A stretch of 63,986 nucleotides of DNA, counting the filler, from Stramenopiles sp. TOSAG23-6 (lineage: Eukaryota), in the NCBI GenBank assembly GCA_900128565.1. It is 6 parts of 6 records of this genome, joined end to end, with 100 filler letters (N's around TTAATTAATTAA, not from the genome) between each part and the next. Parts side by side here need not be neighbours in the genome. Positions count along the whole stretch, not along the records: positions 42,843 to 53,433 come from LT636303.1; 5 more parts are not named here. One strand, given 5' to 3'. The notes under the pieces were generated by a model, which had not been told where the DNA came from, searched no databases, and was given only the letters and a program-made list of their open reading frames with translations. Position 1 is the first letter of the stretch, and each line of letters opens with the position of its first letter. Of the stretch, positions 10,564-63,512 are shown piece by piece. A program made the translations under genes and the position numbers.

Positions 10564-10624
10564 GTACGTTTTCATCCTGATTTTTAGATTTTTTTTTTAT
10601 AGAAAATTTTGTACCTAAACAAAA

Positions 10625-10724: not shown

Positions 10725-10779
10725 AAATTTCGTACGAAAAAAAAATCGATTTTTTTGTAAAAAAAAAAATAAAACATAC

Positions 10780-21435: not shown

Positions 21436-21496
21436 CATCATTGGTACAAACTTTCGTACCAAAAAAAAAAATTAAAATTTCATGATGAAAACGTAC

Positions 21497-27110: not shown

Positions 27111-29710
27111 ATGTCGAATGTACACTGTGATAAAGGTGCATATATAGGTGGTGATTGGGTCGATATTGAAGACCTCGGAGACCGATATAAGCACACTAAT
27201 CCTTGTGATGGTAACTGTAAAGCTTGTCCTCGTTCGCGTACTCGACACTCTTCCCAGCGTCCAGATGGTGGTTATGACGTGGTAATTATTGGAGCTGGTT
27301 GTATTGGATCAGCAATTGCTCGTGAGTTGTCAAAGTCAACAGCGTCTGTTTTGGTGCTAGAGGCGGCTGATGATGTTACACAAGGCGCCACAAAGGGAAA
27401 CTCCGGCATTGTACACGCTGGTTACGACGACAAGCCAGGAACACTCAAGTCAAAGTATTGCTGGCCAGGTAAGTATTTTCGTTTTTATTGCAAACATTCA
27501 TGATATAAGCTTCAAAAAAGAAAAATGATAATTCATTTAAAATACTATTGACATATTGTACAAATTATTACCAAATGTTTCCTCAGTTAGATAGAGAGCT
27601 AAACTTTGGGTTTCAACGAAATGGATCACTTGTGATTGCAAAATCAGAAAAGGATATGGAGACGCTAGATGTTTTGATGCAACGTGGGAAGACAAACGGT
27701 GTAAAAAATTGCCGTATCATAGGCTACGACGAGTTACGAATTAAAGAACCCCATATTCACGAGGACGCTATTGGTGCTTTATATTCTCCAGATGCTGGTA
27801 CAATAACACCTTATGAATACACTATTGCTTTAGCTGAGAATGCAGTTGATAATGGCGTTGAAATCCGCATAAGGAGAAAAGTTGTAGAAATCATTCAAAA
27901 CAAACAAAGTAAAGATAAATTTTCTTTTCCAAACATATCTGAAACGACTAAAGAAACAGAGAAATGGCCTGCAAGGTTCAAAATCACAGTCGAACATTGG
28001 GAACCTCACCTGACTGCCATTCGACTAAATAAAGCGAAATCGTTATTTTACAATTGGAATCTTTCCGCTATAGTGACCATTTTATCAGTGGCAGTAGGTG
28101 TAGCAGCGGGTGGTTTTCTTATATATTTTACTAATTATTCTTGGTTATTTGTGCGGATTTTGTCGATTTGTATTCCAATTTTAATGTGTGTTTTCAACAT
28201 AAAGTTCGAAATATTTTTTAAGTAGCAAATTTTGTACCTAACAAAACAAATTAAATGTAAAATATTTTTCCACGATACATGCTTTTTATATCATTAGGAT
28301 ATAAGTACAATTTATTTTCACAGAAAAATGATGATTTTTTTACAAAAGAATCAAATGTTAATCCGTCCAATGGAACACATGTTTGTTTTATTTTTTTTGA
28401 ATTTCGAATTAATTTATTTTTTCGTACGAAATTTTGTACCTAACAAATTTAAAAGAAAATATCTTTTCACAGTATATCTTCGAGGTCTTTCAAAACGTGA
28501 AATTGTTTATGCTGATTTCGTCATAAATGCTGCTGGTTGTAAGTCAGATGAAATAGCACGTTTAGTCGGAGACACTTCATTTATTGTAAAACCACGTATT
28601 GGTGATTATATTTTACTCCACAAGAAAGAAGGCTTTAAAACAAATCATACACTTTTTCCATGTCCTCATCCAATCTATGGGAAAGGAGTGTTAGTTCAAA
28701 GTACTTTATGGGGCAATTTAATTCTTGGACCGACTGCGAGAGATGTACTAAAAACAAACAAGAAANCAGGAAAATATGAAGTAGATGATTCAGTTGTAAA
28801 TGAACCTCGTGATAATATAATGGGTTATATTTTGTCAAAATGTACTAATTTAATTCCATCATTAGACTCATCTCAAGTGATTCACACTTTTGCAGGTACA
28901 AGAGCAAAATCCAGTACAGGTGATTGGATTATTGGGCCATATAAGTCTTGTCCAGGATTTTATCATGCAGCTTGTATCGATTCACCTGGAATTGCTTCAA
29001 GTCCTGCTATAGCCGTTGACATTGTCAATATGTTACGAGATGGCGGACTTAATTATGTGGTAGATCCGACGTTTCAACCAAATAGGAAAGCTATAGTTGT
29101 GTCTAAAAATGGTTTCAGAGGTTTAAAAATGTCTAAAAAGGACTGGAATAAGATTAAAGATCCACGAATGAATGTTGTGTGTAAATGTGAAAAAGTGACA
29201 GAAGCTGAGATTATTGATGCGTGTAATCGCTCGCTTCCAATCGATTCAACACAAGCTATTCGAAAACGAACAAGGGCAGGTATGGTAAGTTATTCATTTG
29301 AATTCAATAATTTTTCAAATAATTTATTATTCATCATGTTCATGAATAATTTTATTAATTTTTTCAAAACGTTTTTATAAAAAAAAAAATTCTACAGGGA
29401 CATTGTCAAGGTGATAAAGATAATTATAATTGTGAATGTCGTGTCGCCAGTATTATTTCTCGAGAGTGCAACATCCCATTAAATGAAGTTGGTCGACGTC
29501 CATGGCCTGCATGTACGTTTTCATCATTAATTTCAATTGTTTTTCGTACCAAATTCTGTTGTTCACAAATTTCAAAATTTATATTTTTTGCGCAATACAT
29601 CTTCATTATTATCTTCTCGACATGCATATTTAGATGATAAAGAGAGACAACATCTACTTGATTTAAGTCAATCTACAACGAATTACAAATTAAATGGATC
29701 AGCCAATTAA
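27111..29710 (+). CDS. FAD-dependent oxidoreductase, GlpA/glycerol-3-phosphate dehydrogenase-like, with C-terminal BFD-like [2Fe-2S] domain; 6 exons
   Basis: [63 protein letters not shown]. Confidence 0.9.
27473..27570 (+). other. Class-2 intron (GTATTTT donor), apparent GT-TA
   Basis: GGT AA|GTATTTTCG...ACATATTGTACAAATTATTA|C CAA restores CWPGNQMFPQL; boundary not certain. Confidence 0.55.
28186..28280 (+). other. GT-AT intron (phase 2)
   Basis: TTA AT|GTGTGTTTTC...CGATACAT|G CTT; the 100-nt exon that follows is open. Confidence 0.82.
28381..28477 (+). other. GT-AT intron (phase 0)
   Basis: ACA CAT|GTTTGTTTT...CAGTATAT|CTT CGA; the CAG 5 nt upstream is out of phase. Confidence 0.82.
29285..29397 (+). 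other. Canonical GT-AG intron
   Basis: ATG|GTAAGT...CTACAG|GGA CAT TGT restores AGMGHCQG; lacks the family motif. Confidence 0.93.
29513..29600 (+). other. GT-AT intron (phase 1)
   Basis: GCA T|GTACGTTTTC...GCAATACAT|CT TCA gives GRRPWPASSLL. Confidence 0.85.
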
Positions 29711-32144: not shown

Positions 32145-32817
32145 ATGGATGTATGTTTTCATAATGAATTGTTTTTTACTAATTTCAAATTTATTTATTT
32201 TTTCATGCGAAATTTTGTACCTAACAAAAAACAAATTGAATGTACAATATTTCTTTACAAATACATATGCGTCACAAGAATTAGTCAATCTTATTCTTGT
32301 CGGTGGTGCGTACTCCCATTTATTTGATGGTATCAAAAAAATAGACGGTGAACATCCCGGATCAAAAATTGAATTGTGTGGAATTCCAAATCAAAGTTCT
32401 ATTGGATTTCTCACTTTATTTGAGTATTACAATAATTTAAATGTTGGAATACATTTCAAGCAACCAAAAATTCCAATATGGGTTATACAAAGTGAAAGTC
32501 ATTATTCTGTTTTATTTAGTCCACCTATACAAGGTATGCCTAGTGAGATTGATGATTGTTTTGATCTATTTTATTATGATGAATTGGCAAAACAAACTGA
32601 AAATATACGACTTACAATAAAAAAGAGTATTGTTGGTGATGGACAGTTGAATAAAAATAATACTACTATAAAAGATGAAAATGATTTCGTGATGGGAAAT
32701 AAAAATAATACTACTATAAAAGATGAAAATAATGTAGTACCTCCACTCAATAAAGTATTGTCAACAAAATGGCCTAATTGTACAATCAATTGGAATGATT
32801 CAGAACCAATTCTGTAA
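32145..32817 (+). CDS. MINDY-3/4 (FAM188)-like deubiquitinase, C-terminal part
   Basis: GY-ASQELVNLIL, IGFLTLFE, PKIPIWVIQSESHYSVLF, FDLFYYDEL, TKWP..INWN.SEPIL. Confidence 0.9.
32151..32266 (+). other. GT-AT intron (phase 1)
   Basis: GGA T|GTATGTTTTC...AAATACAT|AT GCG TCA CAA restores GYASQELVNL. Confidence 0.87.
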
Positions 32818-33090: not shown

Positions 33091-33987
33091 TTGGATTTGT
33101 TATACGTTCAACAAACCAATCACACCCTTCATCTGTTCGTTTTCGCATTTCACTACCAAAATAATCACGTCTCTCTGCCTTGGTGGCTTGTCTCGCAGAA
33201 CACGGAACAGAAAGCATTTATTGTTGAAAAAATATTTTTTAAAAATTTGATTTTGTTTTGTTAGGTACAATATTTCGTATTAAAAATAAAATAAATTCGA
33301 AATTCATGATGAAAACGTACATTTCTTTCATGTGTTTCATTACAGCAGAATCTAATTCATCTTTATTATGTACAGCATCATCGACCAATCCAATTGAAAA
33401 AGCGGCTTCTCCATCAAGTAACGTACCCCGTGTCACTAGTTGCTCTCCCCGTGCGTCACCTACAACACGTGACATTAAGTCACAAATCCACCACGGAGGA
33501 TTTAAACCTAACGCAGTCTCATTTAATCCAATACGAGGACCACCTGCAGAAATTACACGAGCATCACACGCTAGTGCTAGAACAGTACCACCCGCCGGAG
33601 CATGTCCCTCCATTCTAGCAACAGTAGCCAAAGGAGTTAAAAACAAATCTTGAGCAAGAAGCTGCATCTGTTTCCAGAATTCATGCAGACGTTTGGGATC
33701 TGGGTCTACAAGCTCTTGCAAATCTAATCCTGCACAAAATATCTTTGGGTTTGCTGATGATAAAATCAAACCACGTACTGCAGAATCACTTTCAAGCTCT
33801 TTTAATGTATCTCTCATTTCAATAATGAATTCAAGAGATAGTGTATTCGCAGCTGGTCTATTCATGTTCATTGTTACTACAGNNNNNNNNNNNNNNNNNN
33901 NNAACCAGACGCAGATGAAGCGTTTCGAATATGAAGACAACTTGAACGTACATTCCGAAGAAAGAAACTTCGCGGCACTTGAAACAT
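33044..33987 (-). CDS. ECI1: Mitochondrial enoyl-CoA delta isomerase; exons 33987-33321 (N gap) and 33215-33044
   Basis: Presequence MFQVPRSFFLRNVRSS, MNRPAANTLSLE, FCAGLDL, GHAPAGG, IGLNETALG; spliced tail VPCSARQATK...IQKPIQAYVKSLKK. Confidence 0.92.
33216..33320 (-). other. GT-AT intron (phase 2)
   Basis: GAA AT|GTACGTTTTC...CAATAAAT|G CTT TCT GTT CCG. Confidence 0.87.
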
Positions 33988-36505: not shown

Positions 36506-38078
36506 TTTCATTTGTAGATGTTTTCGTGAGAGTTCGACCACTTTTACCACATGAAGAAGATAAAAAGGAATGGAATGCAGTAAGTACTGGACGTGCAGGA
36601 ATTGTGCTTCATGATGCTCGAATGCATGCTGATATGAAACGTAAATTTATGCAACATCGTCATTTTCTCAGTTTTCAGAGAGTGTTTGGTCCTCAGGATG
36701 ATAATAATACAGTGTATTCAGCTACAGCTAAACCATTAGTGAATACTGTTGCATTTGCTGATGGTCGATGTGCAACAGCTTTTATGTTTGTTTTCATCAT
36801 TCATTTTTTTTTTTTTTTTTTTTGTAAAACTCTTTTATTGTAACCCTAACCAAAAAGTACTATAAAAATAAAAAATAATACTATTAATACTAACTATTGT
36901 CATATTTAATAATGAAACAAAAAACAATATTTCTTTACAATACATGTTTGGTCAAACGGGTAGTGGTAAAACATTTACAATGAATGCAATATATGGTCGT
37001 GCAGCAAGAGATTTATTTGCAACTCTTGATGAAAACTTTTCAAATAGTTCCACTAGTCATCCTATAGTGACGGTTTCTTTAGTTGAAATACTTGCGTATT
37101 TTTTTATATTTTACATTCAGTATATGTATGATATTCGTTATAACAAATACTAATGATGCTAATAATATACTCTCTTTATCAATCACATATTGTACCACAA
37201 TATAGAGGACAAGTATTTGATCTTTTATCAGAGGAAGGAAATTATGCTCCTCCATTGCGTGTATTGGAAGATGGTTCAGGTAAAACACAATTAGTAGGTG
37301 CAATGGAAGTTGTTGTGGAATCTGCTGAAGATTTAATAAGAAATTTAGAAAGTGCAATGGCATCACGTGCTACAGCTGCAACAGGTGTACACGAACACAG
37401 TAGTCGTTCTCATGCTATCTTTCGAATAACTTTAAAAGATTCAGTAACTGAAGAATTTCGTGGAATGCTAATGTTTGTAGATTTAGCAGGTTCTGAAAGA
37501 AATGCTGATTCATGGGCACATAATGCAGCAAGACGTAAAGAATGTATACAAATTAATGTTAGTTTAAGTGCATTGAAAGAGTGTATTCGAAAACGTGCAT
37601 TAGGAGCATCACATGCTCCATTTAGAAATAGTGTTCTTACACGTATTTTAAAAACGTCTCTTTTAGATTCATCAAGTTCTACTGTAGTGATTGCAACCAT
37701 ATCACCCACAGCGACAGATACAGAACATTCACATAATACACTTCGACATGCTTGCTTAATGGCAGGTCAAAAAGCAGAATTTGGTAAAGATGCAGCCATG
37801 TATCTTTTTATTTTTTTTTTAAACAAAAAAATCGAATTTATTTTTTTTTCATACGAAATTTTGTACCTAACAATTTTTTTTAGATTTTTTTACGGTTTAC
37901 AATCTGAAATTACAGGTGGAGCTGGAGGAGAAATTTGTATACAAGTTGATGTTAAAGATGTTGCTGTTGCTAAATTACAAGCTCGTATGAAAGCTTGTAC
38001 GTTTTTCATTGTGAATTTTGTTCTTCATATTTTCTCAAAAAAAAAAAAAAAAAAAAAAATTAAAATTTTTTTTTTATT

Positions 38079-38116
<38 letters not shown>

Positions 38117-38501
38117 CATTATATTTTTTGCAGTATATTTTTCACAAAATATTTTTATACCTAACAAATTTTGAATTTTTTTTTTCATATTTTTCCAAAA
38201 TACATGTACACTTCCAAGAACGTGGAGCAAAAAAGATGCCAAAATGTGGTGGAGAAAAACAGCTAATTATGTAACAACACGATTAAGACTCATTCCATCA
38301 ACTATAGAAGCTCCTCCTGCATCACTTGATGGTCGTGCATTGACAAGAATGGGTCGTCCTAGATTTGTTGCTCTTTGTAATAATAATGAATCTGCTGCGA
38401 CTGAAATGATGAGAAAACTAATGCATGCTACTGATGAAGCTACAGCATTAAGAAGAAAAAAGTCTGTAGATATTAGAGCAAGAAAGAAAAATATGTTTTA
38501 A
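36506..38501 (+). CDS. Kinesin motor protein (kinesin-13-like), multi-exon, 5' part missing
   Basis: VFVRVRPL, AFM-FGQTGSGKT, SSRSHAI, VDLAGSER, INVSLSALKECIR, PFRNSVLTRILK, HSHNTLRHA. Confidence 0.92.
36786..36945 (+). other. GT-AT intron (phase 2)
   Basis: TTT AT|GTTTGTTTTC...ACAATACAT|G TTT GGT CAA restores the P-loop ATAFMFGQTGSGKT. Confidence 0.88.
37096..37205 (+). other. Class-2 intron (GTATTTT donor), GT-AG
   Basis: CTT GC|GTATTTT...ACATATTGTACCACAATATAG|A GGA restores VEILAGQVFDLL. Confidence 0.8.
37997..38205 (+). other. GT-AT intron (phase 1)
   Basis: GCT T|GTACGTTTT...AAAATACAT|GT ACA joins in frame to ORF 38244-38501. Confidence 0.8.
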
Positions 38502-40273: not shown

Positions 40274-42742
40274 CTAAGTAGCAGTAAAAATTCTCCCACG
40301 CGGTAAAGTATTTGCCTTTTCATTCAATGCAGCTTTCTCTTCATTTTCGATTTTTTTGAATATTTCTCTTGTTTTTGCAAGCGCTTTAGATGCGGATAAA
40401 AATGCAGCTGCAGCAACAGTTGCTGCTTCTAATATTCTGGATTTAATGAATTGATCCTGCTCTTTCATATACTTTATCTGGCACATTCTCATCTTCTTGC
40501 GCTTTTGGTTTTGTATTTTAGCTGCTTGGAACATTTTTTGTTTACCCCATCCTGAGAATGATCTGGGGAGATTATTATGACTTGCCTCTTCAAGTATGTA
40601 TTGTGAAAAATATTTTCTTTTTTTGATGTAACAAAAAAAAAGTTAGGTATGGAATTTGGTACAAAAACAAAAATTAATGGATGAAAACAAAAACAAAAAT
40701 CAATAGATGAAAACAAAAACAAAAATCAATGGATGAAAATGTACATTTTTTCTTGTCGTTGAATTGCAACAAGTGCTGATTTTGAATCAAATAAAGCAGC
40801 TGTACAGAAAGCTCGGCGATGAATTAGTGAATGTTTTGATTCCCATCGAACAGTATCTATTTTATTTGTATTACTATTGCTATTGCTATTGATTAGTCTC
40901 TTTTTTCTTTTATTTCTCCACCACTGAAGACAGTTAAATGATTCTGTTCTGCTTATTGCATTGATACCATCGTGACCTCCAATAACAATTGAATGACCAT
41001 CTCTACAAACAGATGTACAACCATATCGACGTTTTGTCATATTTGGTAAAGGCCACCATTTATATTCCCAATCCCAGAAGACATTTCCTTCTTCATTTCT
41101 ATAACAATTACCTTTACACTCAAGCGCCTCTGCAGTCGCTAAACAATGACCTTGACAATCATATCCCCCTGAAACTATTATAACGACTGTACGACTCTTT
41201 TCATTTGGAGAGGGTGGGTCGTGTGGTAAGCAGTTGGTATAACTTTTAAATTTTAGATCTTGCTGTTTTCTATTGTGTGATTTATTATTTACCTCGTCAA
41301 TATTTTCATCATCATCCCCTTCATCGTCATCATCATCATCATCAGCAGCATCATCATCATCAGCATCATCATCATCATCATCACTACTTATATAATCAAT
41401 ACTATCATTGTATGTACAATCATCGCCATCAAACCAACGGTGAACGACAGTACATGATGCACCAATACCTGTACGTGGTGTTGGTAATGCAGGTAGAGAT
41501 TTCCAAGAACATCCATCAAACATTTCAACTTCTTTAAGTGCTCGGTCATCGTTTGACCCACCAATCACAATAATTGTTGAACCAATACTCACACATGCTG
41601 CACCACGTCTAGGAGTTGGCATTGGAGGTAAAGACCGCCAATTTGATTGTCCTACACAGAAACATTCAACAGTATTTGTTACCTGGATCCCATCAAACCC
41701 TCCGGCAACTATAATAACAGGACGCTTCTTTTCAGATGACTCTACTTCTTTCTTTTTTGATTTATTTCCAAGTAAAGATGACTCATCCGACATTTCAGAA
41801 ATATCACTTTGTGTATTTTTGTACAAACTATTTTCTGTATTTTCTTCTGGCCACTCCACATACGGGGGTAATACTCCAATGACAGCATGCTCTCGAGAGT
41901 GAATCATTCTTGGCATTTCTAACCAACCACCACCATTGAATGTCTCAACAAAGGGAACAGGTCTACTTTTTCCAGGCGTATTTTTTTGTCTTTCAGATGT
42001 GTTGTTTTGAATTTCAGACATAGTTTGGTGTTCCGAGTGAATCGAATCAGAGTCGGAAGATTCGCTATCTGGTCCCTCTCCATCACCAGTTGATCCTCCA
42101 GCAACAATCAAAATTCCATCGGTAACAATGGCGACACAACCAGTGTGAGGGTGTGCTGTGGGTGTTGCTCGTTGCCATTGCTTCCCATCAAATGATTCTG
42201 TAGAGAAACTATCACTATCACCACCTCCAGCAACAATAATACATCCTTCTCCAGAAGATTTCATCGGCGATACACCAGGGGTTGCTGATGACCTTGAGCC
42301 TTGGAATCCCTCAATAGTTGATGCCACTACCGTAAAACTGTACTCTACTCCCTCAAATAAACCAGGAACGGTCGCATTACATACAGGTGGCGATGGCTTC
42401 TTCACTGTAATTGTGACACATCCAGCTCGAATTTGTGAAATTGGAACATTCGAACGACATTTACCACTGACAAAAACAACACAATAACTATTATTTTCGA
42501 TATTGTATTCATCGATTCTTGCCTTGACCCAAACATCTCTTGTATATAAGGCCTCGATATTCCTCCCACGCGGAATAATGAAAGTTGCAGGTAATGCACC
42601 TCCATGAAGTGGTTGTGCAGTGACAGCAAAACTATCTACATAAGATCCATCTTGCGCCCGAATACCTCCTTTACAAGTCCAAGAAACACGTGCCGCGCGC
42701 CATCCACCTGAAGCCTTTACATTCTCAATAGATGGCACTTCT
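40274..42742 (-). CDS. FN3 plus kelch-repeat protein with acidic insert; exons 42742-40745 and 40595-40274; 5' end missing
   Basis: VPGLFEGVEYSFTV FN3 motif; repeated IIVAGG..VE..W..LPPMPTPR kelch blades. Confidence 0.85.
40596..40744 (-). other. GT-AT intron (phase 2) with internal ~25-bp tandem repeat
   Basis: AAA AT|GTACATTTTC...ACAATACAT|A CTT joins in frame to ORF 40274-40534. Confidence 0.83.
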
Positions 42743-43061: not shown

Positions 43062-44643
43062 ATTATGTTCAACTTGTTGTAAACATCGAACCACGCCAAC
43101 TTGTGCTTGGTCTACTTGTAACTTGCGCTTATTTGATGGTTTCTATAGTCATAAAAATGAAAAATATTGTAAACAACATTATATAGAATTGACGTGTCCA
43201 AAATGTTCTCAATGTAAATTACCAATAAGTGATACGGTAATAAAAGCACTAAATAAAACGTGGCATAAAGAATGCTTCAAGTGCGTTGTTTGTCAGTGTA
43301 TATTATCAAATAGTAAATTTGGTGGAAAATATAGAGAACATAATTCTCAACCATATTGTGAAAAAGATTGGTTACATCTTCATGCACCTCGATGTGATGT
43401 ATGTCAAAGTGGGATGAAACACTGGACAGTTCATTGTGCATTGACGTCAAAAATAAAAGGAAATGATGTAAAGGCATTGAATTCAAATTCTAGTACGTTT
43501 TGATGATGATTTTTTTTACTATATTTTTTTACTATGGTTTATTATGATGTACTATGGTTTATTATGGTTTATTATGATGTACTATGGTTTATTATAGTTT
43601 ACTATGATTTATTATGATGAACAATTATATATAATATATACCCAATATACCTACTGTAATAACGTAATATACATAATGTTTACAAAGAAAAAACAATTTT
43701 TTTTCACATATTTCTTTACAATACATCAAAGAGTTTAGACAATCATCAGCGTGTATGTGATTCATGTATCTTGAAGTATCCTCCATGTTTCTCTTGTCAT
43801 TCATATGATAAAAGTTCAGTTGATTATAATGATGGACGTGTTATATGTTTATATTGTCATAGTTCTGCAGTGTTTCAACAAAATGACTGTGAAATTNTGA
43901 TGAAAAGAGTAAGAAAATGCTTTCGTGACTTGGGACTAGTTGCATTCACTCAAGATCCACAATTTATAAATTTAACAGCAAAATTATATGATCGATCTAG
44001 TATGATGGAACTTGCAACTCATTCAAGTTGTATTAAACATGGATGTGGAATGAAAGCTCCACTTGGCGTTACGGTGTCTCAAGTAGAAATTTGTACATCA
44101 TATACAACATATACTAATCCTAGCTCAAATGTACATGTACGTTTTCAAAATTGAATTTCAAATTTATTTATTTTTCGTACGAAATTTCGTACCTAACAAT
44201 TTTTCAACAAAAAAAAATATTTTTTCACAATGTATGGACATTTACGTAGAAAACAAATTGATTCAATTGATGAAAAACGATCAGTACAATGTATTGCACT
44301 TCTTCGAGGTCTACCAAAAATTCATTTATCAACTGTTTTGGCGCATGAATTAGGACATGCTTACCTCACTTTAAAAGGATTTCCAAAAATGAACAAAATT
44401 ATAGAAGAAGGTTTTTGTGAACTTTTTGCATTTTTGTGGTTATCAAATGGTAATGCATCAACAACAAATGAAGCATTATTTAGAATACATTTAATGATTG
44501 AAAATAAAGATGTAACATATGGAAAAGGCTTTCGGATTGCACTAGAAACATTTCAGAAATATACAAGACAAAAAGGCAGTACATTTGAAGCATTACAGTA
44601 TATTCTAAAATATTTGTATAGATTTTCAAATTGGCCAAACTGA
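43062..44643 (+). CDS. DA1-like LIM-domain zinc peptidase; exons 43062-43492, 43727-44136, 44236-44643
   Basis: LIM (C..C..WHKECFKC..C..YC), DGRVICLYC, LRGLP...VLAHELGHAYL, EEGFCEL, YGKGFR. Confidence 0.88.
43493..43726 (+). other. GT-AT intron (phase 1) expanded by simple repeats
   Basis: TCT A|GTACGTTTT...ACAATACAT|CA AAG in frame; an in-phase TAG at 43738 is an alternative. Confidence 0.72.
44137..44235 (+). other. GT-AT intron (phase 0)
   Basis: GTA CAT|GTACGTTTTC...CAATGTAT|GGA CAT; contains the perfect palindrome GTACGAAATTTCGTAC. Confidence 0.83.
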
Positions 44644-53591: not shown

Positions 53592-54551
53592 ATTTTTCAT
53601 AATAATTGATTTTTGGATTTGTCCTTCTTCAACATTGTTTTCTAGCTCCCCAAGATTTTTGTTTTTGTTAGGGTTATCATCCACATTATGACTTTCAATT
53701 GTTTTACTATGAGATAGACTTTGATTTATAATTTCATTAGGGTTAGGGCTCTCACTCATTTTACGTTTTTTTTCTAATTCAGTTCCCAAAGTTTGACAAA
53801 CAGAATCTCTGACAAGTTCACTTTTGGTATGAGGAATGTATTATGGGAAATATTTTTTTTTTTACATTCGTTAGATACAAAATTTACTAGAAAAAAATTT
53901 AGGTGAAATATTCATATTCAATCCCACCCCCCCCCAAAAAAAAAAGAATTTTTTGTTGGGTAAAAAAAGTTTTTTGGAAAAAAAAAAATAATTTGAAAAA
54001 ATGATGAAAACATACCTAACATTTCGATCTGTAGTACACAAAAGCGGAAGCGATATCATTTGAACTTCATCTTCCTTATGAATAACTTGAAATTTACCTA
54101 TATTTCTTCTTTTCATCTTGTTATTTTGAGTAGTATAGTTTTTAACAGAAATAGAAGATTCTCCCCAACCAGCTTTATGAAGATATTCTAAAGAGACGCG
54201 AGATTTTTCATCTGCTATAGCAACAGCAGACTCAATATCTACTATTTTGGTATGTAGTAAATCTTTAGTTTGAGAAGTTGAATTATCCAAAATTTGTTCA
54301 TCTGAAATTTCCTCTGTCGAACTCACTTTTTTTCTACGATTTTTTATATATAAAGAATCTTCTTTCTGGTGTGTTGTTTTATGTGATGACAAAGACTTGA
54401 CATCAGATATAAGAGCAGCAAGCTGTTGTGCATTTGATTGAACAAAGATAGGCGCTGGTGTGATACACATAAGTAGAGCATCAACAGTTGTCGGACAAGA
54501 GATTGCTAATTTTGAAATAATATAATTAGGACAAACAAATCCTTTACCTTC
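53592..54551 (-). CDS. Internal exons of an HRDC-domain (Rrp6/EXOSC10-like) protein; exons 54551-54016 and 53835-53592
   Basis: EGKGFVCPNYIISKLAISCPTTVDALL...P.FV resembles the Rrp6 HRDC domain. Confidence 0.65.
53836..54015 (-). other. GT-AT intron (phase 2)
   Basis: GTT AG|GTATGTTTTC...ATAATACAT|T CCT in frame with ORF 53478-53789. Confidence 0.8.
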
Positions 54552-54641
54552 ATGGATTTTAGGAAAATATTTCAAAAAAAAATCGTTAGGTACAAAATTT
54601 CGTATGAAAAATAAATCGAAATTGAAAAAAATAAAACATAC
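54552..54641 (-). other. Family intron whose two flanks belong to different genes
   Basis: Phase-1 donor from PSI gene, phase-0 acceptor (AATCCAT|GAA) into HRDC exon. Confidence 0.7.
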
Positions 54642-55652
54642 ATTCTTTGACGTTTGTGATGAATTCATCACGAGTCGTAGTTCTTACAGTTGTAGGTAAA
54701 GGCTTCCCAGTATATGTATTGTGAAAAAAATATTTTTTTTTAAGTTGATAATAAAAACTTCGTTAGGTACAAAATTTCTATGAAAAATTATGGGAATTCC
54801 TGATGAAAACATACATGGACGATGTACTCCAATTGGTTTTTTACTCCTTGGTGGTGGCATTGGTGTTTTTTTTGTGAAACCAACTCTTTGATTCATGACA
54901 ATAAAAGGATCAAATGAGGAGGTTTTTACCTGAATAGCTTTTTCCCGGGCTCGTTTGAACAGAGATACATCAAAAAAAGTCATAAAAGCTGATTTGTTTT
55001 CATCTTGATTTTCATCTTGATTTTCATCTTGATTTTCATCTTGATTTTCATCTTGTTGAGTAGATTTGTATACTTCCATTGTCAAAGATCTCTCTGCCAT
55101 TTTGAATAGTCTAGTAAATAGGGCATACAAAGTCTTTGCAATCGTATATACATTGGCTTTATAAGGAGATTCATAAATTTCAATGTTATACTCTATGGAA
55201 CCTCGTGGGTTAAGTTTTTCCATGTTATTTTCTTCATATTTCAGTACTCTTTCCTCTAAATAAGTCAAACTCTTTTCAATGTCACGAAATATTTGCGGGT
55301 CTGGTGTAAACACATTTTTATTTTGATTCATGTATGAAAAATTATTGCATTTTTTGTGTTTAGAATTAAAACATTGGTATTGATTAGAATCCGAGGATTG
55401 TACCGGCAAAGCACACCAGCCACATGCAGTATGAGCTGCACAACTATCACATGTTTTGTATTGTTTGCAGTCAAATGATTTCTTTATATCATGAAAAGTC
55501 TGTTTAATTTTCCCTGCACAGTCTAGGGTAGAGCAATCCTTTTGAGACTGTGCTAATTTGAGGTACTTTGTCGACTTTGGTAAAGAAATATTTACACGAG
55601 CGCCATTAGAGATATGTACTACTAAAATTAAGAAGCATAGACAATAAAACAT
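54642..55652 (-). CDS. Secreted protein with PSI-like Cys-rich domain; exons 55652-54815 and 54713-54642
   Basis: Signal peptide, C..Y.TC.SC....ACGWC PSI motif, QDEN repeat. Confidence 0.75.
54714..54814 (-). other. GT-AT intron (phase 1)
   Basis: CCA T|GTATGTTTTC...ACAATACAT|AT ACT; the following 72-nt exon is open in this phase and has a stop in phase 0. Confidence 0.8.
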
Positions 55653-56351
55653 GGTAATAGTTTAAAGAATAAAACAACACTGATATGATGGATGTCTTGA
55701 TGTTATCACTTCAACAACTTTTAAAATGTTTAATGCTTTAAAGATTCGGTGCGTAATATTACGTAATATTATTATAATTGTGTTTTACACTTTTAGTCTT
55801 TTTAGAGCCATCAATCTCATTTCCAAAATCGAAACATCAAAAACAATAATAAAATCTCCGATCTAGCAGTTAGATTGAGAAAATGAACAGGTTTGTGACT
55901 AGATCCATTTTGGTTCTCTACTATTTATAATTGGAGGCTTCATCCATCTTTCAAAGGCAATAATTATGGAATTCATATCTCAAAGCTAACGGGTAATTCT
56001 AATGCACCAAGTGACCACAAAACAAAGTTGCTGAGATAACATGAATTAATACATTTTTTTATTACGTTTTATTAGTACAATTCAAAACCTTATTATCAGT
56101 AAGTATATATACTACAAGTAACTAAGTTTAACTTTAACCAGAGTTTCTGAGTAGACACAATGATATAAATAAAACTGATACATTTGACACACTACAAAGT
56201 TCGACATAGTTATTAATTTTGTTTTGTTTTTTTTTAGTACGAAAATGTGTACCTAACGAATTTTTCAATATTATTTTTGAAATTAATGATAAGATATGAT
56301 ACAAACAAAATAAAATTGCTATCTTTGACACAGACAGTTACATCAGAGTTT

Positions 56352-57410: not shown

Positions 57411-60400
57411 ATGAAAAGTGTAAATGTTGCAAATAAGTATGAGGATTTCATGAATAGCGTAAGTATCCCCCCAAATGAGGATTTCCCGCGTCTGTACATC
57501 AATCAAGAAATTCTTATTTTCCATCATGGAAATAAATCGTGGGGCCCTGCTACTATTATACAAATTAAAAAAGACGAAGCGGAGTGTTCGTACGAAAAAC
57601 ATACAATACATCACCCGCATAAGTTGAAAAAGAGATGGATACGATTCAGAGATATAAATAAAACCTGGAAGCTTCATGACGACCAGCCTAGTGACGAGTA
57701 TCAAGATGATGAAATAAAAGGCAACAAAAAAACAGCTTCAATTAGTATTATAAGAAAGACTACCCGATTAACAACTACGATACCTTCAAATACAACAAGT
57801 GAAGACTTCGATCAGTATAAGAAAAGGTTAACACGCCATGTAAAAAGGAAGATATCGCCAAGTTTTACACCACTTGCGACGAAGAAAGTTGATAATGCTA
57901 AAGTCCAAAAGGTTCAAAAGCAAATGAACTTAAAATCAACATTTGTAAAGTCAGTAAATGTTTCAAAAAGGCATCACCATCACCATCATCAATCGCCCAA
58001 AAAAGATGTTTTACATGTAAATACATTGAATGTTTTGCCAAATGATACAATTGAGAAAACATCGAAACATATAGTATCTAAATATTGGAAAGAAGGGGTT
58101 TGTCCTGCAACTGGTAGACAGTATTGGTACAACACAGTCACAGATGAAAGTACATATGAAGATCCTACTTCGGGAGGTATGATAATTGAAAAACATACAA
58201 GTAATACATTTAATATTAACAAGTCGGTAAAGATTATTGATGAAAATACATCTGTACAGCAACATTCAGAAACGCAAAAGCAATTACAGCTTCAATTATT
58301 ACAGTTACAACAACAACATGAGCTGGAAAGAACGCAATTGAAACGATCACAAAACAAAAAAGTACAACTAGAAAAACCACAACAAGAGCAACTACTAGAA
58401 ATAAAAAGTACTGTCCATGAAAACAATCCTACTACTACTACTACTACTACTACAACTATTACTACAAATCCTGCAAATAATACTACTTCAATGACGATTC
58501 CTTCAACTACTACAAAAAATGACAATGAAAAACCGACATTTGCAGGAGGAATTCCAACAGATTATATTCAAAAAATATTTCTTTATTTAGATAAAGATAA
58601 TGATGGTTATTTACTGAAATCTGAAGTAGGTCAACTGATGAAGGCTTTAGGCGAACGATTTCCAATAAATACTATACTTAAAAGCGAACTTGACCACATG
58701 TATGTTTTACTTTTTTTCAAATTCGATTTTTTTTTCGTACGAAATGTTGTACCTAACAAATTTAAGGGTTTTTTTTTTCAAATATTTTTCCAAAATACAT
58801 TCTAGGTCATAGGATTGAAACCGCCTTTTCCTCATTATTCGAAGGAAAATCACTCTCGAGTGGTTTTAAAGAAATGGACAGATCCCATATTGGAAAAGTA
58901 TCATTTGAAGATATCATTTGGTGGCACCGAATTCATTCCCCAAAATCTGAATCTGATTATCTTTTAAAAATTCGATATTACTTTCAAAAAATTGATGTTG
59001 ACTGCAAAGGAAGTTTAAATAAAAAAGGTATCGGAAAGTTGGCAAAAAAAGTGGGTGTTGGTTTTGGCAATACTCGATTCGGATTCAAAAATAAAAAATT
59101 GGATGCTGCATTCACTACAATGAGTAGACATTCAACTACTAAATTTACTACTAAGATGGAAAACGGAAAATATCTACAAGAAGTGACATGCGAAGCATTC
59201 ATTGATTGGATGAAAACACTTCACAAAGATATCTTTGAAAAATTTGAGCAAAATAATTCTACAACTAAGAATATGGATACACTTGGCGATAGTAGTGAAA
59301 CCGGTAACTTTGAAAAGGTTATCGGTAATGAGAAACAAAATTTCAACGGTATGAAACCAGAAAAAACAGAAATGAAACCAGAAAAAACAGAAATGTCTCT
59401 ACAAGAAAACGAAATCAAGCACAGAAAAAAACACAGGGAAAAGATAGAAAAAAAACAGAGCCAAAACCACCACCAACAACATTTGATAGAAGAACAAGAA
59501 AAAATTAAAGCGATTGCAAAAGAAGTAATAAAAACACAAGAAATGCATGAGGCTAAATTACACAAAGAACACGCTGATGTAGTAAAACAAATACATAATG
59601 ATGCTTTACGCCAAAAATCCTTTTTTCACGGAGAAGAAGCAAAGATAGCACAAGCAATCCAGAAGGCACAAACAGATATGATGATTCAATCAAAGCACTC
59701 AGAATTAGCAAAACATGTTGAAAAGGCAGCTTTAAGACAAGAGTTGAGTGACTCAAAGCAAGAACTCCACAATGCTGTACTGAAGCAACAAATAGAAGAT
59801 GTGGGACTTAAGTTGAATGAATTGGTTGTTCAGAATAAGAAGCTAGTTCAACGGAATGATGATTTAAAAGAAGAGAAATACAAAGACGTACTTGAATACA
59901 AAAATGCTTTATCATACAATGTTATTACAGCTTGCGAACAAGACACAATCGGAGTAGATGATTTCGTATTGAGTATTACTAATCCTACAACAAACAAAAA
60001 TATAAATCTAAACACTAAAGAAACACATACAAATGCAGATATGAAAGATATTTGCGAAGTATTAATTGATAAAGAAGAACAAATTGAAAATCTTCGAAGG
60101 GAGACTGTTGAAAAAGTAATGAAAGAGCACAAAGAACGAGAGAAGGATGAAAAAAACAAAGAAGGTTCTTCTTTTGAAGAACTAGACCTTATTTTGTCCC
60201 AAATAGATGACGCAGTCCAAAACTCAAGGAATCTTCTCCGTGCTTCTACTAAACAAAAAATTGATCGCATGACGAAGAGCGTTACTGACAATGAGAGTAA
60301 AACAAACAATCTTTTTGTTAACACAAACTTTGATTCTCAATTTGATACTGTGCATACTAATATAAGTCCTGAAGCAAATGCGAGAATACAGGTATGGGCA

Positions 60401-61995
60401 TCCTCTTTGCCATTGTCGACAAGCACAAATACAACAACAAATAATTCATTCTACGGCTATTCTACTACAAATGATGCTATTTCTAGTACTATTACACAAA
60501 AACAACACAGAAAGGAAAGAGATTTACAAAACTGGGTATCAGGGCTTTCTTCATACCCAATACCCCCCGATGCATTACCGAGAGATAGGATATCATTTAA
60601 CCAATCATGTGTGCCACCTCGCCCATCTCAAACACCGCCATCTTGCACGGATAATTTGGAACGTGCACTTGGTGAGACGATTAGTTTAGAAAAACAAATT
60701 TTAGAGTCAAATAAAAGAATAGAAGCAGACATTAAAAAATGCCGTTCCCGAGGAAACAATCAAATGGAAGAAATACCGGGTTTCGATAGTAGATATATTG
60801 CTGCACAACATATGAGACTACAATCTCTGAGAGAGCAAGCTGCGAAAGAAAAATCTTCGAAGAGACAGTATATTTCATGTAAGATTGACTGTATGAAAGA
60901 AAGATCCAAATCTGCTTCCATTGACGCTGCTATTGTCAAAGAAAATAAACGAATAAACTCTCAATTACAGAAGAAAATCGATGATTTGGTCTTTATTCAA
61001 AGAGAATTGGGGACAACATCTAGCATTCAATTGGAAGAGAAAATTGAGAGTATGCGCTTAGAAGCTGAAAGAGCTGAAAAGGAAGCTAAAGAAATNAGAG
61101 AGAAAGAATTGGAACTACAAAAAGAGCGTGAGATGTCTGTAAGAAATACTTTGGAGATTCGCACACCACCAATGAATTCAGATAGAATGAAAGATATTTT
61201 ACAGGGATGGGCTGCAAATGTCAATAATCCTAGAATACTAACAAACTACTTTACAACGACACGTACTTTAGCACAGGAAAGGAGAAAAGAAAAAAAACAT
61301 TTTTTTGTATCGCCGAATAAACGTAAACAAAGAAATGTACACAAAAGTCACATAGAAACGACATCACAACATTATCAGCCACTCATAAATATGAATAATG
61401 TAAAACAAAAGATGAATAAAATTGAAGCAATAGACGCTGGTGTAGAACCATTAACACCAGATTGTATCACAACAGATTCTCCAAAGTTTAGAAATACAAT
61501 TTCTCATTATCATGACAAAAAAAATTCTTTGAGCTCTCCAAAGTTTAGAAATGCAATTTCTCATTATCGTGACAAAACAAATTCTTTGAGAGCTCTCGTC
61601 GATCTTCATATATACGTTACTATTATTTCAATTTCAATTTTTTTTTCATACAAAAGTTTGTACCTAACAAACAAAATCAAATTTTTGAAAATATTTTCTT
61701 ACAATATTTATGTCTCCATTCTATTCCAAAGAACGACTTGGATAATATTGAAGCTCAGGTTCTTAAAAATGCGTCTAATAATGACGGTACACTTGATCTA
61801 AAGACAGTTTTTACAATTTGTAAAGAAAACAATTTAAATTTGACTCGTTTTCAGAGAACGACAATTGAAAAGGTTTTTGCCGGTCAAGATAACCTGCTAA
61901 ATGCTATGAATTTATCTAACTTTATTAGAATTCCGAGTTCTGCTTTTCTTTCATGTGAAAGAGACGATGTTGCTGAGTTTAAAACAAATTTTTGA
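57411..61995 (+). CDS. Large WW + EF-hand + coiled-coil protein; exons 57411-58699, 58801-61611, 61710-61995
   Basis: WW motif YWKE...TGRQYWYNTVTDESTYEDP; EF loops DKDNDGYL, DRSHIGKVSFED, DVDCKGSL. Confidence 0.85.
58700..58800 (+). other. GT-AT intron (phase 2)
   Basis: CAC AT|GTATGTTTT...AAAATACAT|T CTA in frame with ORF 58874. Confidence 0.82.
61612..61709 (+). other. Family intron with AT-TT ends (phase 2)
   Basis: CAT AT|ATACGTT...ACAATATTT|A TGT joins in frame to ORF 61738-61995; internal GTACCTAAC motif present. Confidence 0.7.
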
Positions 61996-63413: not shown

Positions 63414-63512
63414 GTGAGTTTTATTTTTTTTCAAATTCGATTTTTTTTCGTACGAAATTTTGTACCTAACAAAACTTTTAGATTTTTTTTGAAATATTTT
63501 TCCAAAATACAT
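63414..63512 (+). other. Family intron whose flanks appear to belong to different genes
   Basis: Phase-0 donor GTGAGTTTT; acceptor AAATACAT opens a long frame only in phase 2. Confidence 0.7.

What the first reader, a model, noticed from the sequence alone, without database searches (positions are those of the whole stretch)
44137..44235. The GT-AT introns are one sequence family with a conserved hairpin just before the branch-like CTAAC (introner-like)
Seen: unrelated genes carry near-identical ~90-115 nt introns with the layout GTAYGTTTTCA - TTCGAATT - T-run - TTCGTACGAAATTTTGTACCTAAC - A/T spacer - AATATTTTT(C)ACAATACAT. GTACGAAATTTTGTAC can fold as a 6-bp stem with a 4-nt loop and is a perfect 16-bp palindrome at 44167-44182; TTTCGTACGAAA is a second overlapping palindrome. 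The CTAAC lies roughly 35-50 nt from the acceptor. Spacers diverge while these blocks are kept. Established: introner elements (e.g. in Micromonas and Aureococcus) create many similar introns, but mostly with AG acceptors. Inference: either a recent introner burst or selection on an unusually extended splice signal (RNA hairpin or protein/snRNA binding site) that compensates for the missing AG.
Basis: partly seen in the sequence, partly recalled or inferred. Interest (0 to 1): 0.85.

Follow-up and report, generated by a model that had tools for sequence, protein, structure and literature searches.

The report
Introner-like GT–AT intron family
About 34 short introns in unrelated genes of this marine protist are copies of one repeated sequence that ends in AT instead of the usual AG, which looks like a self-spreading "introner", while the proposed hairpin shows no sign of being selected.

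Summary
The window is six ~10.6-kb contigs of a stramenopile whose closest named relative carries a MAST-3-type label. It holds about 34 loci of one sequence family: 26 complete introns, 6 copies cut by contig ends and 2 fragments outside any recognised intron.

Removing each copy from GT to AT restores long reading frames in 21 of 26 complete copies. It also restores exact protein colinearity in lysyl-tRNA synthetase (three introns). A GT-AG reading is possible for only 2 of 21 copies.

The hairpin is not supported. Only 5 of 26 copies can form all six pairs. Pairing equals the shuffled controls, there is no covariation, and whole-intron folding z-scores average about -0.4.

The "one family" reading is supported:
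- Alignment columns are linked into subfamilies (0 of 2000 permutations reach the observed variance).
- Blocks that are not known splice signals are shared but decaying.
- 6 of 10 internal contig ends lie inside copies.
- Over 1000 contigs in each of two seawater RNA-library runs pile onto the copies.

Mobility itself is not shown, no spliced RNA junction was recovered, and intron positions could not be compared with relatives.

Best reading: an introner-like family of U2-type introns with non-AG acceptors, a new variant of a known kind. I found no report of it in the papers searched.

The parts
44137..44235 (+). Focal family intron (99 nt, GT..AT) in the DA1-like gene
   Evidence: Sequence. 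158 and 135 open codons on either side in phase 0. nhmmer E=6.8e-17. Exon 3 matches Pfam DA1-like.
44177..44192 (+). 16-nt perfect palindrome GTACGAAATTTCGTAC, the proposed hairpin. CTAAC follows at 44193-44197.
   Evidence: Stem statistics. Fold.
43493..43726 (+). Long divergent family intron (234 nt) in the DA1-like gene, with a 30-nt x3 internal tandem repeat. Family 5' and 3' blocks are kept; the middle is different.
   Evidence: (180/141 open codons). No nhmmer hit.
5078..5192 (-). LysRS intron 1 (115 nt)
   Evidence: the exon ends align to consecutive residues of solved LysRS chains with no length change; 290/217 open codons.
4438..4534 (-). LysRS intron 2 (97 nt). The 5' exon ends in AA, not AT, so an AT-AC reading is excluded.
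   Evidence: exon 2 ends at residue 405 and exon 3 starts at residue 407 of chain 4dpg_A, so the junction codon supplies one residue (Lys under GT..AT).
4162..4271 (-). LysRS intron 3 (110 nt). The gene is cut at 4112 by an assembly chimera.
10917..11010 (-). Family intron in the WD-repeat (CAF1B/HIR1-type) gene. The boundaries can slide over a 4-nt ATAT direct repeat (11014..10921 gives the same mRNA).
   Evidence: 192/64 open codons.
13133..13226 (-). Family intron in the ataxin-2-like gene
   Evidence: 497/86 open codons.
15911..16013 (+). Family intron in the MRS2-like gene, with scattered Ns inside the copy
   Evidence: 318/127 open codons.
16370..16474 (+). Family intron in the MRS2-like gene, subfamily with GTACCAAATTCC before the branch block
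19806..19906 (+). Family intron in the GAF-domain gene
   Evidence: 716/45 open codons.
20759..20871 (-). Family intron in the ceramidase gene. The 5' exon ends in TC.
   Evidence: profile positions 3-124 and 155-252 on the two exons, with 31 residues covering the 30 profile positions between them; 148/204 open codons.
28186..28280 (+). Family intron in the FAD-oxidoreductase (DAO) gene
28381..28477 (+). Family intron in the DAO gene
   Evidence: 40/300 open codons.
29513..29600 (+). Family intron whose branch block lacks CTAAC
   Evidence: (E=4.5e-11).
32151..32266 (+). Family intron 6 nt from the start of a contig
33216..33320 (-). Family intron ending in ATAAAT
   Evidence: 187/56 open codons.
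36786..36945 (+). Family intron (160 nt) just before the kinesin P-loop
   Evidence: 107/68 open codons. nhmmer is weak (E=0.75).
37800..37910 (+). Family intron in kinesin with a degenerate 3' block. The 3' end is uncertain, because an AG at 37883 is also frame-compatible.
37997..38205 (+). Family intron (209 nt) in kinesin with a long A/T tract
   Evidence: 284/97 open codons.
40596..40744 (-). Family intron with a 26-nt x3 internal tandem repeat
   Evidence: 666/106 open codons. An internal AG is also frame-compatible.
53836..54015 (-). Family intron (180 nt). The 5' exon ends in AG.
   Evidence: 222/101 open codons.
54552..54641 (-). Family intron that is NOT frame-compatible as GT..AT. 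The flanking frames need 88 or 91 nt, not 90.
   Evidence: and manual frame check.
54714..54814 (-). Family intron
   Evidence: 282/41 open codons.
58700..58800 (+). Family intron of the most abundant subfamily
   Evidence: 432/999 open codons; depth pile-up, and a loose end exactly at 58800.
61616..61707 (+). Family intron whose family-aligned 5' site is ATACGT. GT..AT holds only if the GT four bases further in is used. 61612-61709 (AT..TT) is equally frame-compatible.
63414..63512 (+). Family intron, probably in a 5' UTR, so there is no frame test
   Evidence: highest pile-up.
10564..10624 (+). Copy cut by a contig end, mirrored at 1-61 (-) by the chimeric arm
10725..10779 (-). Copy cut by a contig start
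21270..21335 (-). Copy cut by a contig end. Its family-aligned 3' end reads ACAG.
21436..21496 (-). Copy cut by a contig start
53379..53433 (-). Copy cut by a contig end
53534..53591 (-). Copy cut by a contig start
22482..22514 (-). Branch-block fragment with no 5' or 3' family ends, in a stretch with no long ORF
   Evidence: (E=1.3e-4).
56221..56267 (+). Fragment lying between two minus-strand ORFs, on the strand opposite to them, without family ends
   Evidence: (E=3.2e-7).

Best explanation
These are copies of one introner-like element family in the nuclear genome of an uncultured marine stramenopile (MAST-3-like).

Each copy is a short spliceosomal intron, mostly 88-116 nt, that carries its own signals:
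- a 5' splice site GTAYGT, usually followed by TTTCA or TTTAT;
- a branch site CTAAC inside an almost invariant GTACCTAAC;
- 34-54 nt further on, an unusual acceptor in which the intron ends in AT, usually within (C/A)AATACAT, instead of AG.

The 5' exon also usually ends in AT. So both places where ordinary introns show AG carry AT here.

The other shared blocks are the TTCGAATT box, the T-run and the CGTACGAAATTTT stretch. I read them as inherited from master copies and decaying, not as signals. The hairpin is a by-product of the self-complementary GTAC word occurring three times in each copy.

Shown:
- family membership and abundance;
- the exact length removed in four conserved genes;
- absence of a usable AG;
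- absence of stem conservation.

Inferred:
- removal by a U2-type spliceosome;
- spread by copying, either by a DNA insertion with a 2-bp AT duplication or by reverse splicing into AT|G sites;
- a spliceosome adapted to AT acceptors.
For: (1) Family. The alignment of 19-21 copies shows the same ordered blocks, and 31 nhmmer hits reach E<=0.01 against 0-2 in shuffles.

(2) Descent rather than per-site convergence. The variance of pairwise differences is 34.7 against 15.3 +/- 3.0 when columns are permuted (0 of 2000 as high). The smallest distance is 9 against 18.7 (0 of 2000 as low).

(3) Blocks that are not known signals vary freely. For example, the left arm of the stem is GTACG, ATACG, ATAGA or other.

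(4) Repeat behaviour.
- 6 of 10 internal contig ends lie inside copies, which cover about 6% of the sequence.
- In four seawater RNA-library runs, 1114, 1203, 66 and 133 contigs were laid. In run X6, summed depth was 133-4601 in the six 349-nt bins that hold subfamily copies and at most 16 in the other 24.
- Other loci's contigs diverge at 58800, 63513 and 63515, and before 63418. That is at the intron termini (table 7).

(5) Real introns with non-AG ends.
- The three LysRS junctions give uninterrupted colinearity with solved LysRS chains.
- The ceramidase and kinesin exons abut in their Pfam profiles.
- 21 of 26 complete copies leave at least 40 open codons on both sides when cut from GT to AT. 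For three of these I picked the boundary among frame-compatible options.
- Making the intron 1 or 2 nt longer does this in only 4 of 26.
- 14 of 21 copies have no AG between the branch site and the 3' end, and only 2 of 21 have a frame-compatible, stop-free AG.

(6) GT..AT rather than AT..AC. 6 of 25 copies have a 5' exon that does not end in AT. LysRS intron 2 needs the junction Lys.

(7) Exon context. AT precedes the intron in 19 of 25 copies (the AT dinucleotide background is 9%), and G follows it in 14 of 25.
Against: - No spliced RNA junction was seen. The one read-laying run found no contig that skips an intron, because exon cover was only 2-5x in short contigs. The ends therefore rest on homology and reading frames.
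- Mobility is not shown. I could not compare insertion presence or absence, or intron positions with orthologues, because no genome or relative's DNA was available.
- Copies are only 68% alike on average, so this is not a very recent burst.
- Terminal inverted repeats are at most about 5 nt, and the putative duplication is only 2 nt. These are weak transposon hallmarks.
- A crude Mantel test on ungapped end windows found no link between the 5' and 3' ends (r=-0.03, p=0.58).
- One copy (54552-54641) is frame-incompatible as GT..AT. One truncated copy ends in ACAG at the aligned position.
- Nearly every intron seen in the window carries the family blocks. That is also what a lineage-wide splice-signal requirement would give.
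- The pile-up in RNA-library contigs could be partly inflated by AT-rich low complexity.
Confidence: 0.6

Rival explanations
1. Lineage-wide extended splice signals without mobility. The organism's spliceosome requires long 5', branch and 3' motifs, as in some intron-poor protists and yeasts. All introns have converged on them or retained them, and the similarity is functional constraint only.
For: Almost all intervening sequences recognised in the window carry the blocks. The three most invariant blocks are exactly the places where splice signals sit: the 5' site, GTACCTAAC and the ...ATACAT end. Average identity is modest at 68%.
Against: - Columns are strongly linked into subfamilies.
- Blocks with no known signal role are shared yet decaying.
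- Contigs break inside copies, which needs long near-exact identity.
- Subfamilies differ about 100-fold or more in environmental depth: 4601 against 16 or 3.4 in X6 bins.
- Two fragments lie outside recognisable introns.
- At least two intervening sequences lack the family layout: 37091-37200, and one of about 27469-27565.
Confidence: 0.2
2. The hairpin GTACGA-AATT-TYGTAC just before CTAAC is a selected RNA structure or a binding site that compensates for the missing AG.
For: The focal copy has a perfect 16-nt palindrome. The hairpin is in the minimum-energy fold of 2 of 12 introns.
Against: - Only 5 of 26 copies form all six pairs, and 12 of 26 form four or fewer.
- Pairing is 72.2% against 71.6% in shuffles, and the covariation score is 0.092 against 0.091.
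- Sliding the partner by -2 columns gives the same 72.2%.
- Changes in the left arm are never compensated, because the right arm is part of the invariant GTACCTAAC.
- Whole-intron z-scores average about -0.4, and only 1 of 12 is below -2.
Confidence: 0.04
3. The family is spliced by a minor-type (U12-like) or otherwise second spliceosome, which is known to tolerate GT-AT ends.
For: GT-AT is documented as a rare but competent U12-type pair, 7 of 66 non-canonical U12-type introns in one survey (PMC1557818, passages seen). The family has long, rigid 5' and branch motifs and no obvious polypyrimidine requirement. At least two intervening sequences in the window lack the family layout.
Against: The 5' site GTAYGT and the branch CTAAC are of the U2/yeast type. 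They are not the U12-type consensus as I recall it. The branch-to-acceptor distance is 34-54 nt, far beyond the 10-15 nt that I recall for U12-type introns. No snRNA gene is in the window, so nothing here supports a second machinery.
Confidence: 0.1
4. The elements are not spliceosomal. They are removed at the DNA level, or by another RNA pathway that uses the short complementarity between the 5' junction (ATGTAY) and the 3' end (RTACAT).
For: The six bases across the 5' junction are complementary to the last six bases of the intron in the GTAT-type copies. The ends are non-canonical.
Against: A strong U2-type 5' site and a CTAAC branch site are kept under the tightest conservation. The copies are present in the amplified genomic DNA. 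Variants at the ends are not compensated (manual check on the table).
Confidence: 0.04

Closest known systems
Introner elements of marine algae (Micromonas pusilla, the stramenopile Aureococcus anophagefferens) and the introners found in about 5% of surveyed eukaryotes
   Same: Many introns in unrelated genes share one sequence, are short, carry their own splice signals, and occur in a marine protist. Subfamily structure is present. Some known families also lack clear inverted repeats or duplications (PMC9860276, passages seen).
   Different: Known families use canonical ends. The latest survey accepted only AG and AC as 3' sites and discarded families with unfamiliar sites unless RNA supported them (PMC12130899, passage seen). 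Here the acceptor is AT. The hallmarks described there are 3-9-bp flanking duplications and/or terminal inverted repeats. Here the duplication would be 2 bp and the inverted ends about 5 nt. Mobility is not shown here.
Introner elements with non-canonical splice sites in the parasitic dinoflagellate Amoebophrya (PMC7789003, passages seen)
   Same: Repeated introns with non-GT-AG ends and short direct repeats across the exon/intron boundaries, in a marine protist.
   Different: Amoebophrya elements have 8-20-nt inverted repeats that pair the two intron ends, highly variable end dinucleotides and no clear splice consensus. Here the ends are uniform (GT..AT), there is a strong U2-type 5' site and branch site, and no end-to-end hairpin.
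Fungal introner-like elements
   Same: About 100-nt introns that multiply, carry all splice signals, and degenerate into ordinary-looking introns.
   Different: Fungal elements are GT-AG and were reported with stable predicted folds. Here the acceptor is AT and folds are no more stable than shuffles.
Rare GT-AT introns of animals (U12-type, and one conserved U2-type case; PMC1557818, passages seen)
   Same: The same terminal dinucleotides.
   Different: Those are isolated cases of a few per genome, mostly U12-type. Here GT-AT is the rule for a family of about one copy per 1.7 kb, with U2-type signals.
Extended, rigid intron motifs of intron-poor protists such as Trichomonas and Giardia (recalled)
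   Same: A long conserved 5' site and a conserved branch-to-acceptor block.
   Different: Those introns are very few, end in AG, and fuse the branch site and acceptor at a short fixed distance. Here introns are dense, end in AT, and the branch site lies 34-54 nt from the acceptor.

Membership tests
Introner / introner-like element | Many introns in unrelated genes share sequence similarity along their whole length, beyond the splice signals | tested here: met
   34 loci in about 59 kb. Alignments, nhmmer. Host genes from at least 9 unrelated families.
Introner / introner-like element | Similarity reflects common descent (subfamilies) rather than independent convergence on motifs | tested here: met
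   Column-permutation test: variance 34.7 against 15.3 +/- 3.0, 0 of 2000. A cruder Mantel test on end windows was negative for the 5' against 3' ends.
Introner / introner-like element | The repeated unit coincides with the intron, and each copy is removed precisely | tested here: met
   Contigs from other loci diverge at the intron termini (table 7). Exact colinearity in LysRS, ceramidase and kinesin. 21 of 26 pass the frame test. There is no direct RNA junction.
Introner / introner-like element | Recent gain: positions not shared with relatives, or presence/absence polymorphism | not testable with these tools
   No genome is held. The metagenome scan gave only 3 chance matches. One distant LysRS ORF from an environmental contig is uninterrupted where intron 2 sits (P0122), which is only a weak hint.
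Introner / introner-like element | Transposon hallmarks (terminal inverted repeats, target-site duplication). These are optional in the published definition. | tested here: inconclusive
   AT on both sides in 19 of 25 copies could be a 2-bp duplication or a splice-site preference. The inverted ends are about 5 nt only.
U2-type (major) spliceosomal intron | GT at the 5' end with a GTAAGT/GTATGT-like hexamer | tested here: met
   GTACGT in 11 of 25, GTATGT in 6, other GT hexamers in 8.
U2-type (major) spliceosomal intron | CTRAY-type branch site upstream of the acceptor | tested here: met
   CTAAC in 24 of 26 aligned copies and CTAAA in 2. The branch point itself is not mapped.
U2-type (major) spliceosomal intron | AG at the 3' end | tested here: not met
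   The ends are AT. 14 of 21 copies have no AG after the branch site, and only 2 of 21 have a usable AG.
U12-type (minor) intron | Extended U12-type 5' splice-site consensus (recalled) | tested here: not met
   The 5' ends are GTAYGTTTT, which does not fit the U12-type consensus as I recall it.
U12-type (minor) intron | Branch site 10-15 nt from the acceptor (recalled) | tested here: not met
   34-54 nt in 22 copies.
Structured intron with a conserved pre-branch hairpin | Stem maintained across copies, with compensatory changes | tested here: not met

The most novel reading that the evidence does not exclude
This lineage's major spliceosome may routinely use AT instead of AG as the acceptor. 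It may also prefer AT instead of AG at the end of the upstream exon. An introner that carries a complete matching signal set would then have filled the genome, at roughly one copy per 1.7 kb, with GT-AT introns. That predicts co-evolved changes in the parts of the machinery that read the exon end and the 3' splice site: the 5' end of U1, U5 loop 1, and Prp8/Slu7/Prp18. It would also explain why standard GT-AG gene finders could mispredict or miss genes in such genomes.
Probability: 0.35. Interest if true: 0.85.

Novelty: new variant of a known kind. Interest (0 to 1): 0.72.

Why it matters
Introners are the best current explanation for bursts of intron gain. All well-described families use ordinary AG (or AC) acceptors.

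A dense family with uniform GT-AT ends would show that a mobile intron and a host spliceosome can settle on a different acceptor rule. It would give a natural system for studying how the 3' splice site is chosen without AG.

There is also a practical consequence. Gene finders that assume GT-AG would misread most genes of this abundant, uncultured group of ocean grazers. Published gene catalogues and functional inferences for it may therefore be incomplete.

Tried and rejected
- Whole genome: none is held.
The listed 'joints' join one copy to another (for example 54643 to 54714, which skips the 70-nt exon between two copies), so they are repeat artefacts. Parts without cover say nothing.
- Metagenome scan with a 19-nt branch-block word: 3 hits, none with family context, so there are no extra copies and no relatives' loci.
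- Protein search with LysRS exon 2, hoping for near-identical transcript-derived proteins across the junctions: the best hit was 73% identical, so it was not informative.
- Earlier-findings look-ups: nothing found.
- Covariation between the first intron base and the acceptor: two copies looked like AT..TT, but each also has a frame-compatible GT..AT reading, so I dropped the idea.
- Pairing of the 5' site with the internal GTAC words: base +4 (C or T) does not track column 11 (G or A) in a manual tally.
- A brute-force search for other GT..AG or GT..AT introns by open frames was too noisy to use.
- Mantel tests on fixed end windows were weak and were replaced by the column-permutation test.
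- Boundaries of the two non-family intervening sequences (about 27469-27565, and 37091-37200) could not be resolved to any standard dinucleotide pair.
- Supplementary files of the papers are closed. Intron tables in the supplements of the MAST genome papers may bear on the novelty claim.
Full report
**What the window is.** The 63,986-base window is not one molecule. Five N44-TTAATTAATTAA-N44 linkers (10625, 21336, 32045, 42743, 53434) join six contigs of about 10.6 kb each. The first contig is an inverted chimera: arms 1-4112 and 6513-10624 are 100% complementary. I read this as an amplification artefact of the kind seen in single-cell genomes. G+C is 30-40%.

The ribonucleotide reductase small chain gene (38883-40223, minus strand, Pfam hit) is 93% identical to a protein labelled GSMAST32 in a eukaryote protein collection. 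It is 74-78% identical to the other named and unnamed relatives listed, the named ones mostly diatoms, parmaleans and oomycetes. I therefore place the organism among the stramenopiles, close to the MAST-3 group. This is an inference from one protein and one label. Public runs holding the DNA are coded. Seawater metagenomes and metatranscriptomes hold parts of it.

**The observation.** The 16-nt palindrome lies at 44177-44192, ten bases from the stated place.

The motifs are far commoner than chance:
- The branch block with up to 2 mismatches occurs 33 times against 8.8 expected.
- The 5' block with up to 1 mismatch occurs 21 times against 4.3 expected.
- A profile built from 21 copies finds 43 hits at E<=1 and 31 at E<=0.01, against 0-2 in five shuffled windows. 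21 of those hits match by construction. Nine further loci plus one mirror duplicate do not.

Putting profile hits and inspection together, I count 34 loci in about 59 kb of non-duplicated sequence:
- 26 complete introns;
- 6 copies cut by contig ends;
- 2 fragments without family ends (22482-22514 and 56221-56267).

Three of the 26 complete introns were recognised mainly by eye. 36786-36945 and 37997-38205 have only weak profile hits, and 43493-43726 has none.

20 of 25 tabulated copies are 88-116 nt long. The rest are 149-234 nt and carry internal tandem repeats or A/T tracts. 'Near-identical' overstates the similarity. Mean pairwise identity is 68% over 91 well-aligned columns, and the closest pairs differ at 9-13 columns.

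**They are introns, and they end in AT.** The lysyl-tRNA synthetase gene in the unique loop of contig 1 carries three copies. I translated each exon separately and compared it with solved LysRS structures.
- Exon 1 ends where residue 289 of a 597-residue chain aligns, and exon 2 resumes at 293 with its third residue. The junction codon plus two residues therefore fill 290-292 exactly.
- Exon 2 ends at residue 405 of a second chain, and exon 3 starts at 407. The junction codon supplies the one missing residue, a lysine under the GT..AT reading.
- Exon 3 runs to the next junction without a length change.

The two ceramidase exons leave 31 residues for 30 profile positions.

Over all 26 complete copies, cutting from GT to AT leaves at least 40 open codons on both sides, in one phase, in 21. 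For three of these (10917-11010, 37800-37910, 61616-61707) I chose the boundary among frame-compatible alternatives. Making the intron 1 or 2 nt longer gives long frames in only 4 of 26.

One copy, 54552-54641, is not compatible: its flanks require 88 or 91 nt, not 90. The remaining four cannot be tested with confidence. Two have shorter open frames, one sits at a contig edge, and one is probably in a 5' UTR.

An AG acceptor is not an option. 14 of 21 copies have no AG at all between the branch site and the 3' end, and only 2 of 21 have an AG that keeps the frame without a stop.

Because the upstream exon ends in AT in 19 of 25 copies, GT..AT and AT..AC give the same mRNA for most copies. The six copies whose exon ends otherwise, and the junction lysine of LysRS intron 2, favour GT..AT. 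One truncated copy reads ACAG at the aligned 3' end.

I could not obtain a spliced RNA junction, so these ends rest on homology and reading frames.

**The hairpin.** I aligned the 31 bases ending in CTAAC from 26 copies and scored the proposed six-pair stem.
- 72.2% of cells pair, against 71.6 +/- 1.1% when the 3' letters are shuffled (194 of 500 shuffles at least as high).
- The covariation score is 0.092 against 0.091.
- Sliding the partner by two columns gives the same 72.2%.
- The closing G-C pair exists in 9 of 24 distinct sequences.
- All six pairs form in 5 of 26 copies, and four or fewer in 12 of 26.

The right arm never changes because it is part of the invariant GTACCTAAC. The left arm drifts (GTACG, ATACG, ATAGA and others) without compensation.

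Twelve whole introns folded as RNA have z-scores from -2.03 to +1.42, with a mean of about -0.4. The hairpin appears in the minimum-energy structure of two. The stem is best explained by the self-complementary word GTAC occurring at the 5' site, in the left arm and in the branch block.

**One family by descent.** If the similarity came only from selection on each position, alignment columns would be independent. They are not.
- The variance of pairwise differences is 34.7 against 15.3 +/- 3.0 after permuting each column (0 of 2000 as high).
- The closest pair is far closer than in any permutation: 9 against a mean minimum of 18.7 (0 of 2000).

By eye there are at least three subfamilies, which differ together in the 5' tail, the middle box and the 3' block. 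A cruder Mantel test on ungapped end windows did not show the 5'-3' link. I give it less weight because indels shift those windows.

The sequence also behaves as a repeat.
- 6 of 10 internal contig ends lie inside a copy, although copies cover about 6% of the sequence.
- When contigs from four seawater RNA-library runs were laid on 53534-63986, 1114, 1203, 66 and 133 contigs matched. In run X6, summed depth was 133-4601 in the six bins holding copies of one subfamily and at most 16 in the other 24.
- Contigs from other loci stop matching at 58800, 63513 and 63515, and begin matching at 63418. That is at the intron termini (table 7). The repeated unit is therefore the intron itself.

These libraries may hold DNA or unspliced RNA, so they do not show expression or splicing.

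Two fragments lie outside any recognisable intron. One sits between two minus-strand ORFs on the strand opposite to them.

**What is not shown.** I could not test whether copies are recent insertions. No genome is held, and the metagenome scan returned three chance matches. The only relative's LysRS ORF that I could read is distant (68% identical). It is merely uninterrupted where intron 2 sits.

Transposon hallmarks are weak. The AT on both sides may be a 2-bp duplication or a splice preference, and the inverted ends are about 5 nt.

Not all intervening sequences belong to the family.
- Kinesin exons abut in the Pfam profile at positions 133 and 134, which defines a 110-nt intervening sequence at 37091-37200 with CT..AA or AC..CA ends.
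- The FAD-oxidoreductase gene has another at about 27469-27565 whose ends I could not fix.
- Both contain ACATATTGTAC near the 3' end, and these are the only two exact occurrences in the window.

**Mechanism.** I commit, at about 60%, to an introner-like family of U2-type introns. Each copy brings a strong 5' site, a CTAAC branch site and a conserved 3' block whose last bases, usually ACAT, mark an AT acceptor 34-54 nt past the branch site.

The AT before the intron and the AT at its end parallel the AG found at both places in ordinary introns. This suggests that the parts of the spliceosome that read these positions have changed in this lineage. That step is inference.

Spread by copying is inferred from the family structure. 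The route, whether DNA insertion or reverse splicing, is open.

Rivals:
- a lineage-wide signal requirement without mobility (about 20%);
- a minor-type spliceosome (about 10%), noting that GT-AT is a known rare U12-type pair (PMC1557818, passages seen);
- a functional hairpin (about 4%);
- a non-spliceosomal route (about 4%).

**Comparison with what is known.** Introners are established in marine algae and in about 5% of surveyed eukaryotes (PMC9860276, significance statement in the listing and passages). The latest survey treats only AG and AC as acceptable 3' sites (PMC12130899, passage seen).

Amoebophrya has introners with non-canonical ends, but with long end-pairing inverted repeats and no uniform ends (PMC7789003, passages seen).

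Term searches of four papers on MAST genomes found no remark on unusual introns or splice sites in their main texts:
- PMC5778133;
- PMC12614181;
- PMC8163842;
- bioRxiv 10.64898/2026.04.17.719054.

Library searches for introners with MAST or stramenopiles and for GT-AT introns in protists listed nothing on this either. Supplements could not be read.

I therefore rate it a new variant of a known kind. The work on Micromonas and Aureococcus transposon introners, fungal introner-like elements and Trichomonas/Giardia motifs is recalled, not read here.

Noticed in passing
window 1-4112 and 6513-10624: Contig 1 is an inverted chimera. The two 4112-nt arms are 100% complementary around a 2400-nt loop, which truncates the LysRS gene at 4112. 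This is probably an amplification artefact.
   Followed up: partly
window 10625-10724, 21336-21435, 32045-32144, 42743-42842, 53434-53533: N44-TTAATTAATTAA-N44 linkers. The window is six unrelated contigs of about 10.6 kb laid end to end in descending size, so neighbouring genes across linkers are not neighbours in the genome.
   Followed up: yes
window 37091-37200: A 110-nt intervening sequence in the kinesin motor domain that lacks the family layout. The Pfam profile is seamless (positions 133|134) only if the ends are CT..AA (or AC..CA). No GT-AG, GT-AT or AT-AC pair fits both the frame and the length.
   Followed up: partly
window ~27469-27565: An intervening sequence in the FAD-oxidoreductase gene that starts with GTAAGT but has no frame-compatible AG at the obvious CAG (length 118). 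It shares the word ACATATTGTAC near its 3' end with the kinesin one, and these are the only two exact matches in the window. This may be a second intron family or truncated family copies.
   Followed up: partly
window 54552-54641: A family copy whose flanking reading frames require an intron of 88 or 91 nt instead of the 90 nt given by GT..AT. This could be an exception to the rule, an alternative site, or a 1-nt error in the 72-nt exon before it.
   Followed up: partly
window 40661-40739 and 43528-43616: Tandem repeats inside two family introns (26 nt x3, and 30 nt x3). They account for the greater length of those copies.
   Followed up: yes
window 15964-15999: Eight single Ns scattered inside one intron copy. 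This looks like consensus ambiguity where reads from different copies were merged.
   Followed up: no
window 34239-34323 and 44876-44949: Two tRNA genes, Leu(TAA) and Ile(TAT). The second lies about 230 nt downstream of the DA1-like gene.
   Followed up: no
protein P0002: The closest named relative's RNR small-chain gene model lacks two conserved stretches (7 and 15 residues) that are present in the window's uninterrupted gene and in other homologues. This looks like a gene-model error in that annotation.
   Followed up: no
window 46344-47177: A long 87-nt (29-codon) tandem array of 9.4 copies, 80% alike, inside the ankyrin-repeat ORF 46077-47312.
   Followed up: no
window 21270: One truncated family copy has ACAG where the others have ACAT at the aligned 3' end. 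This hints that AG may be usable at the same position.
   Followed up: partly
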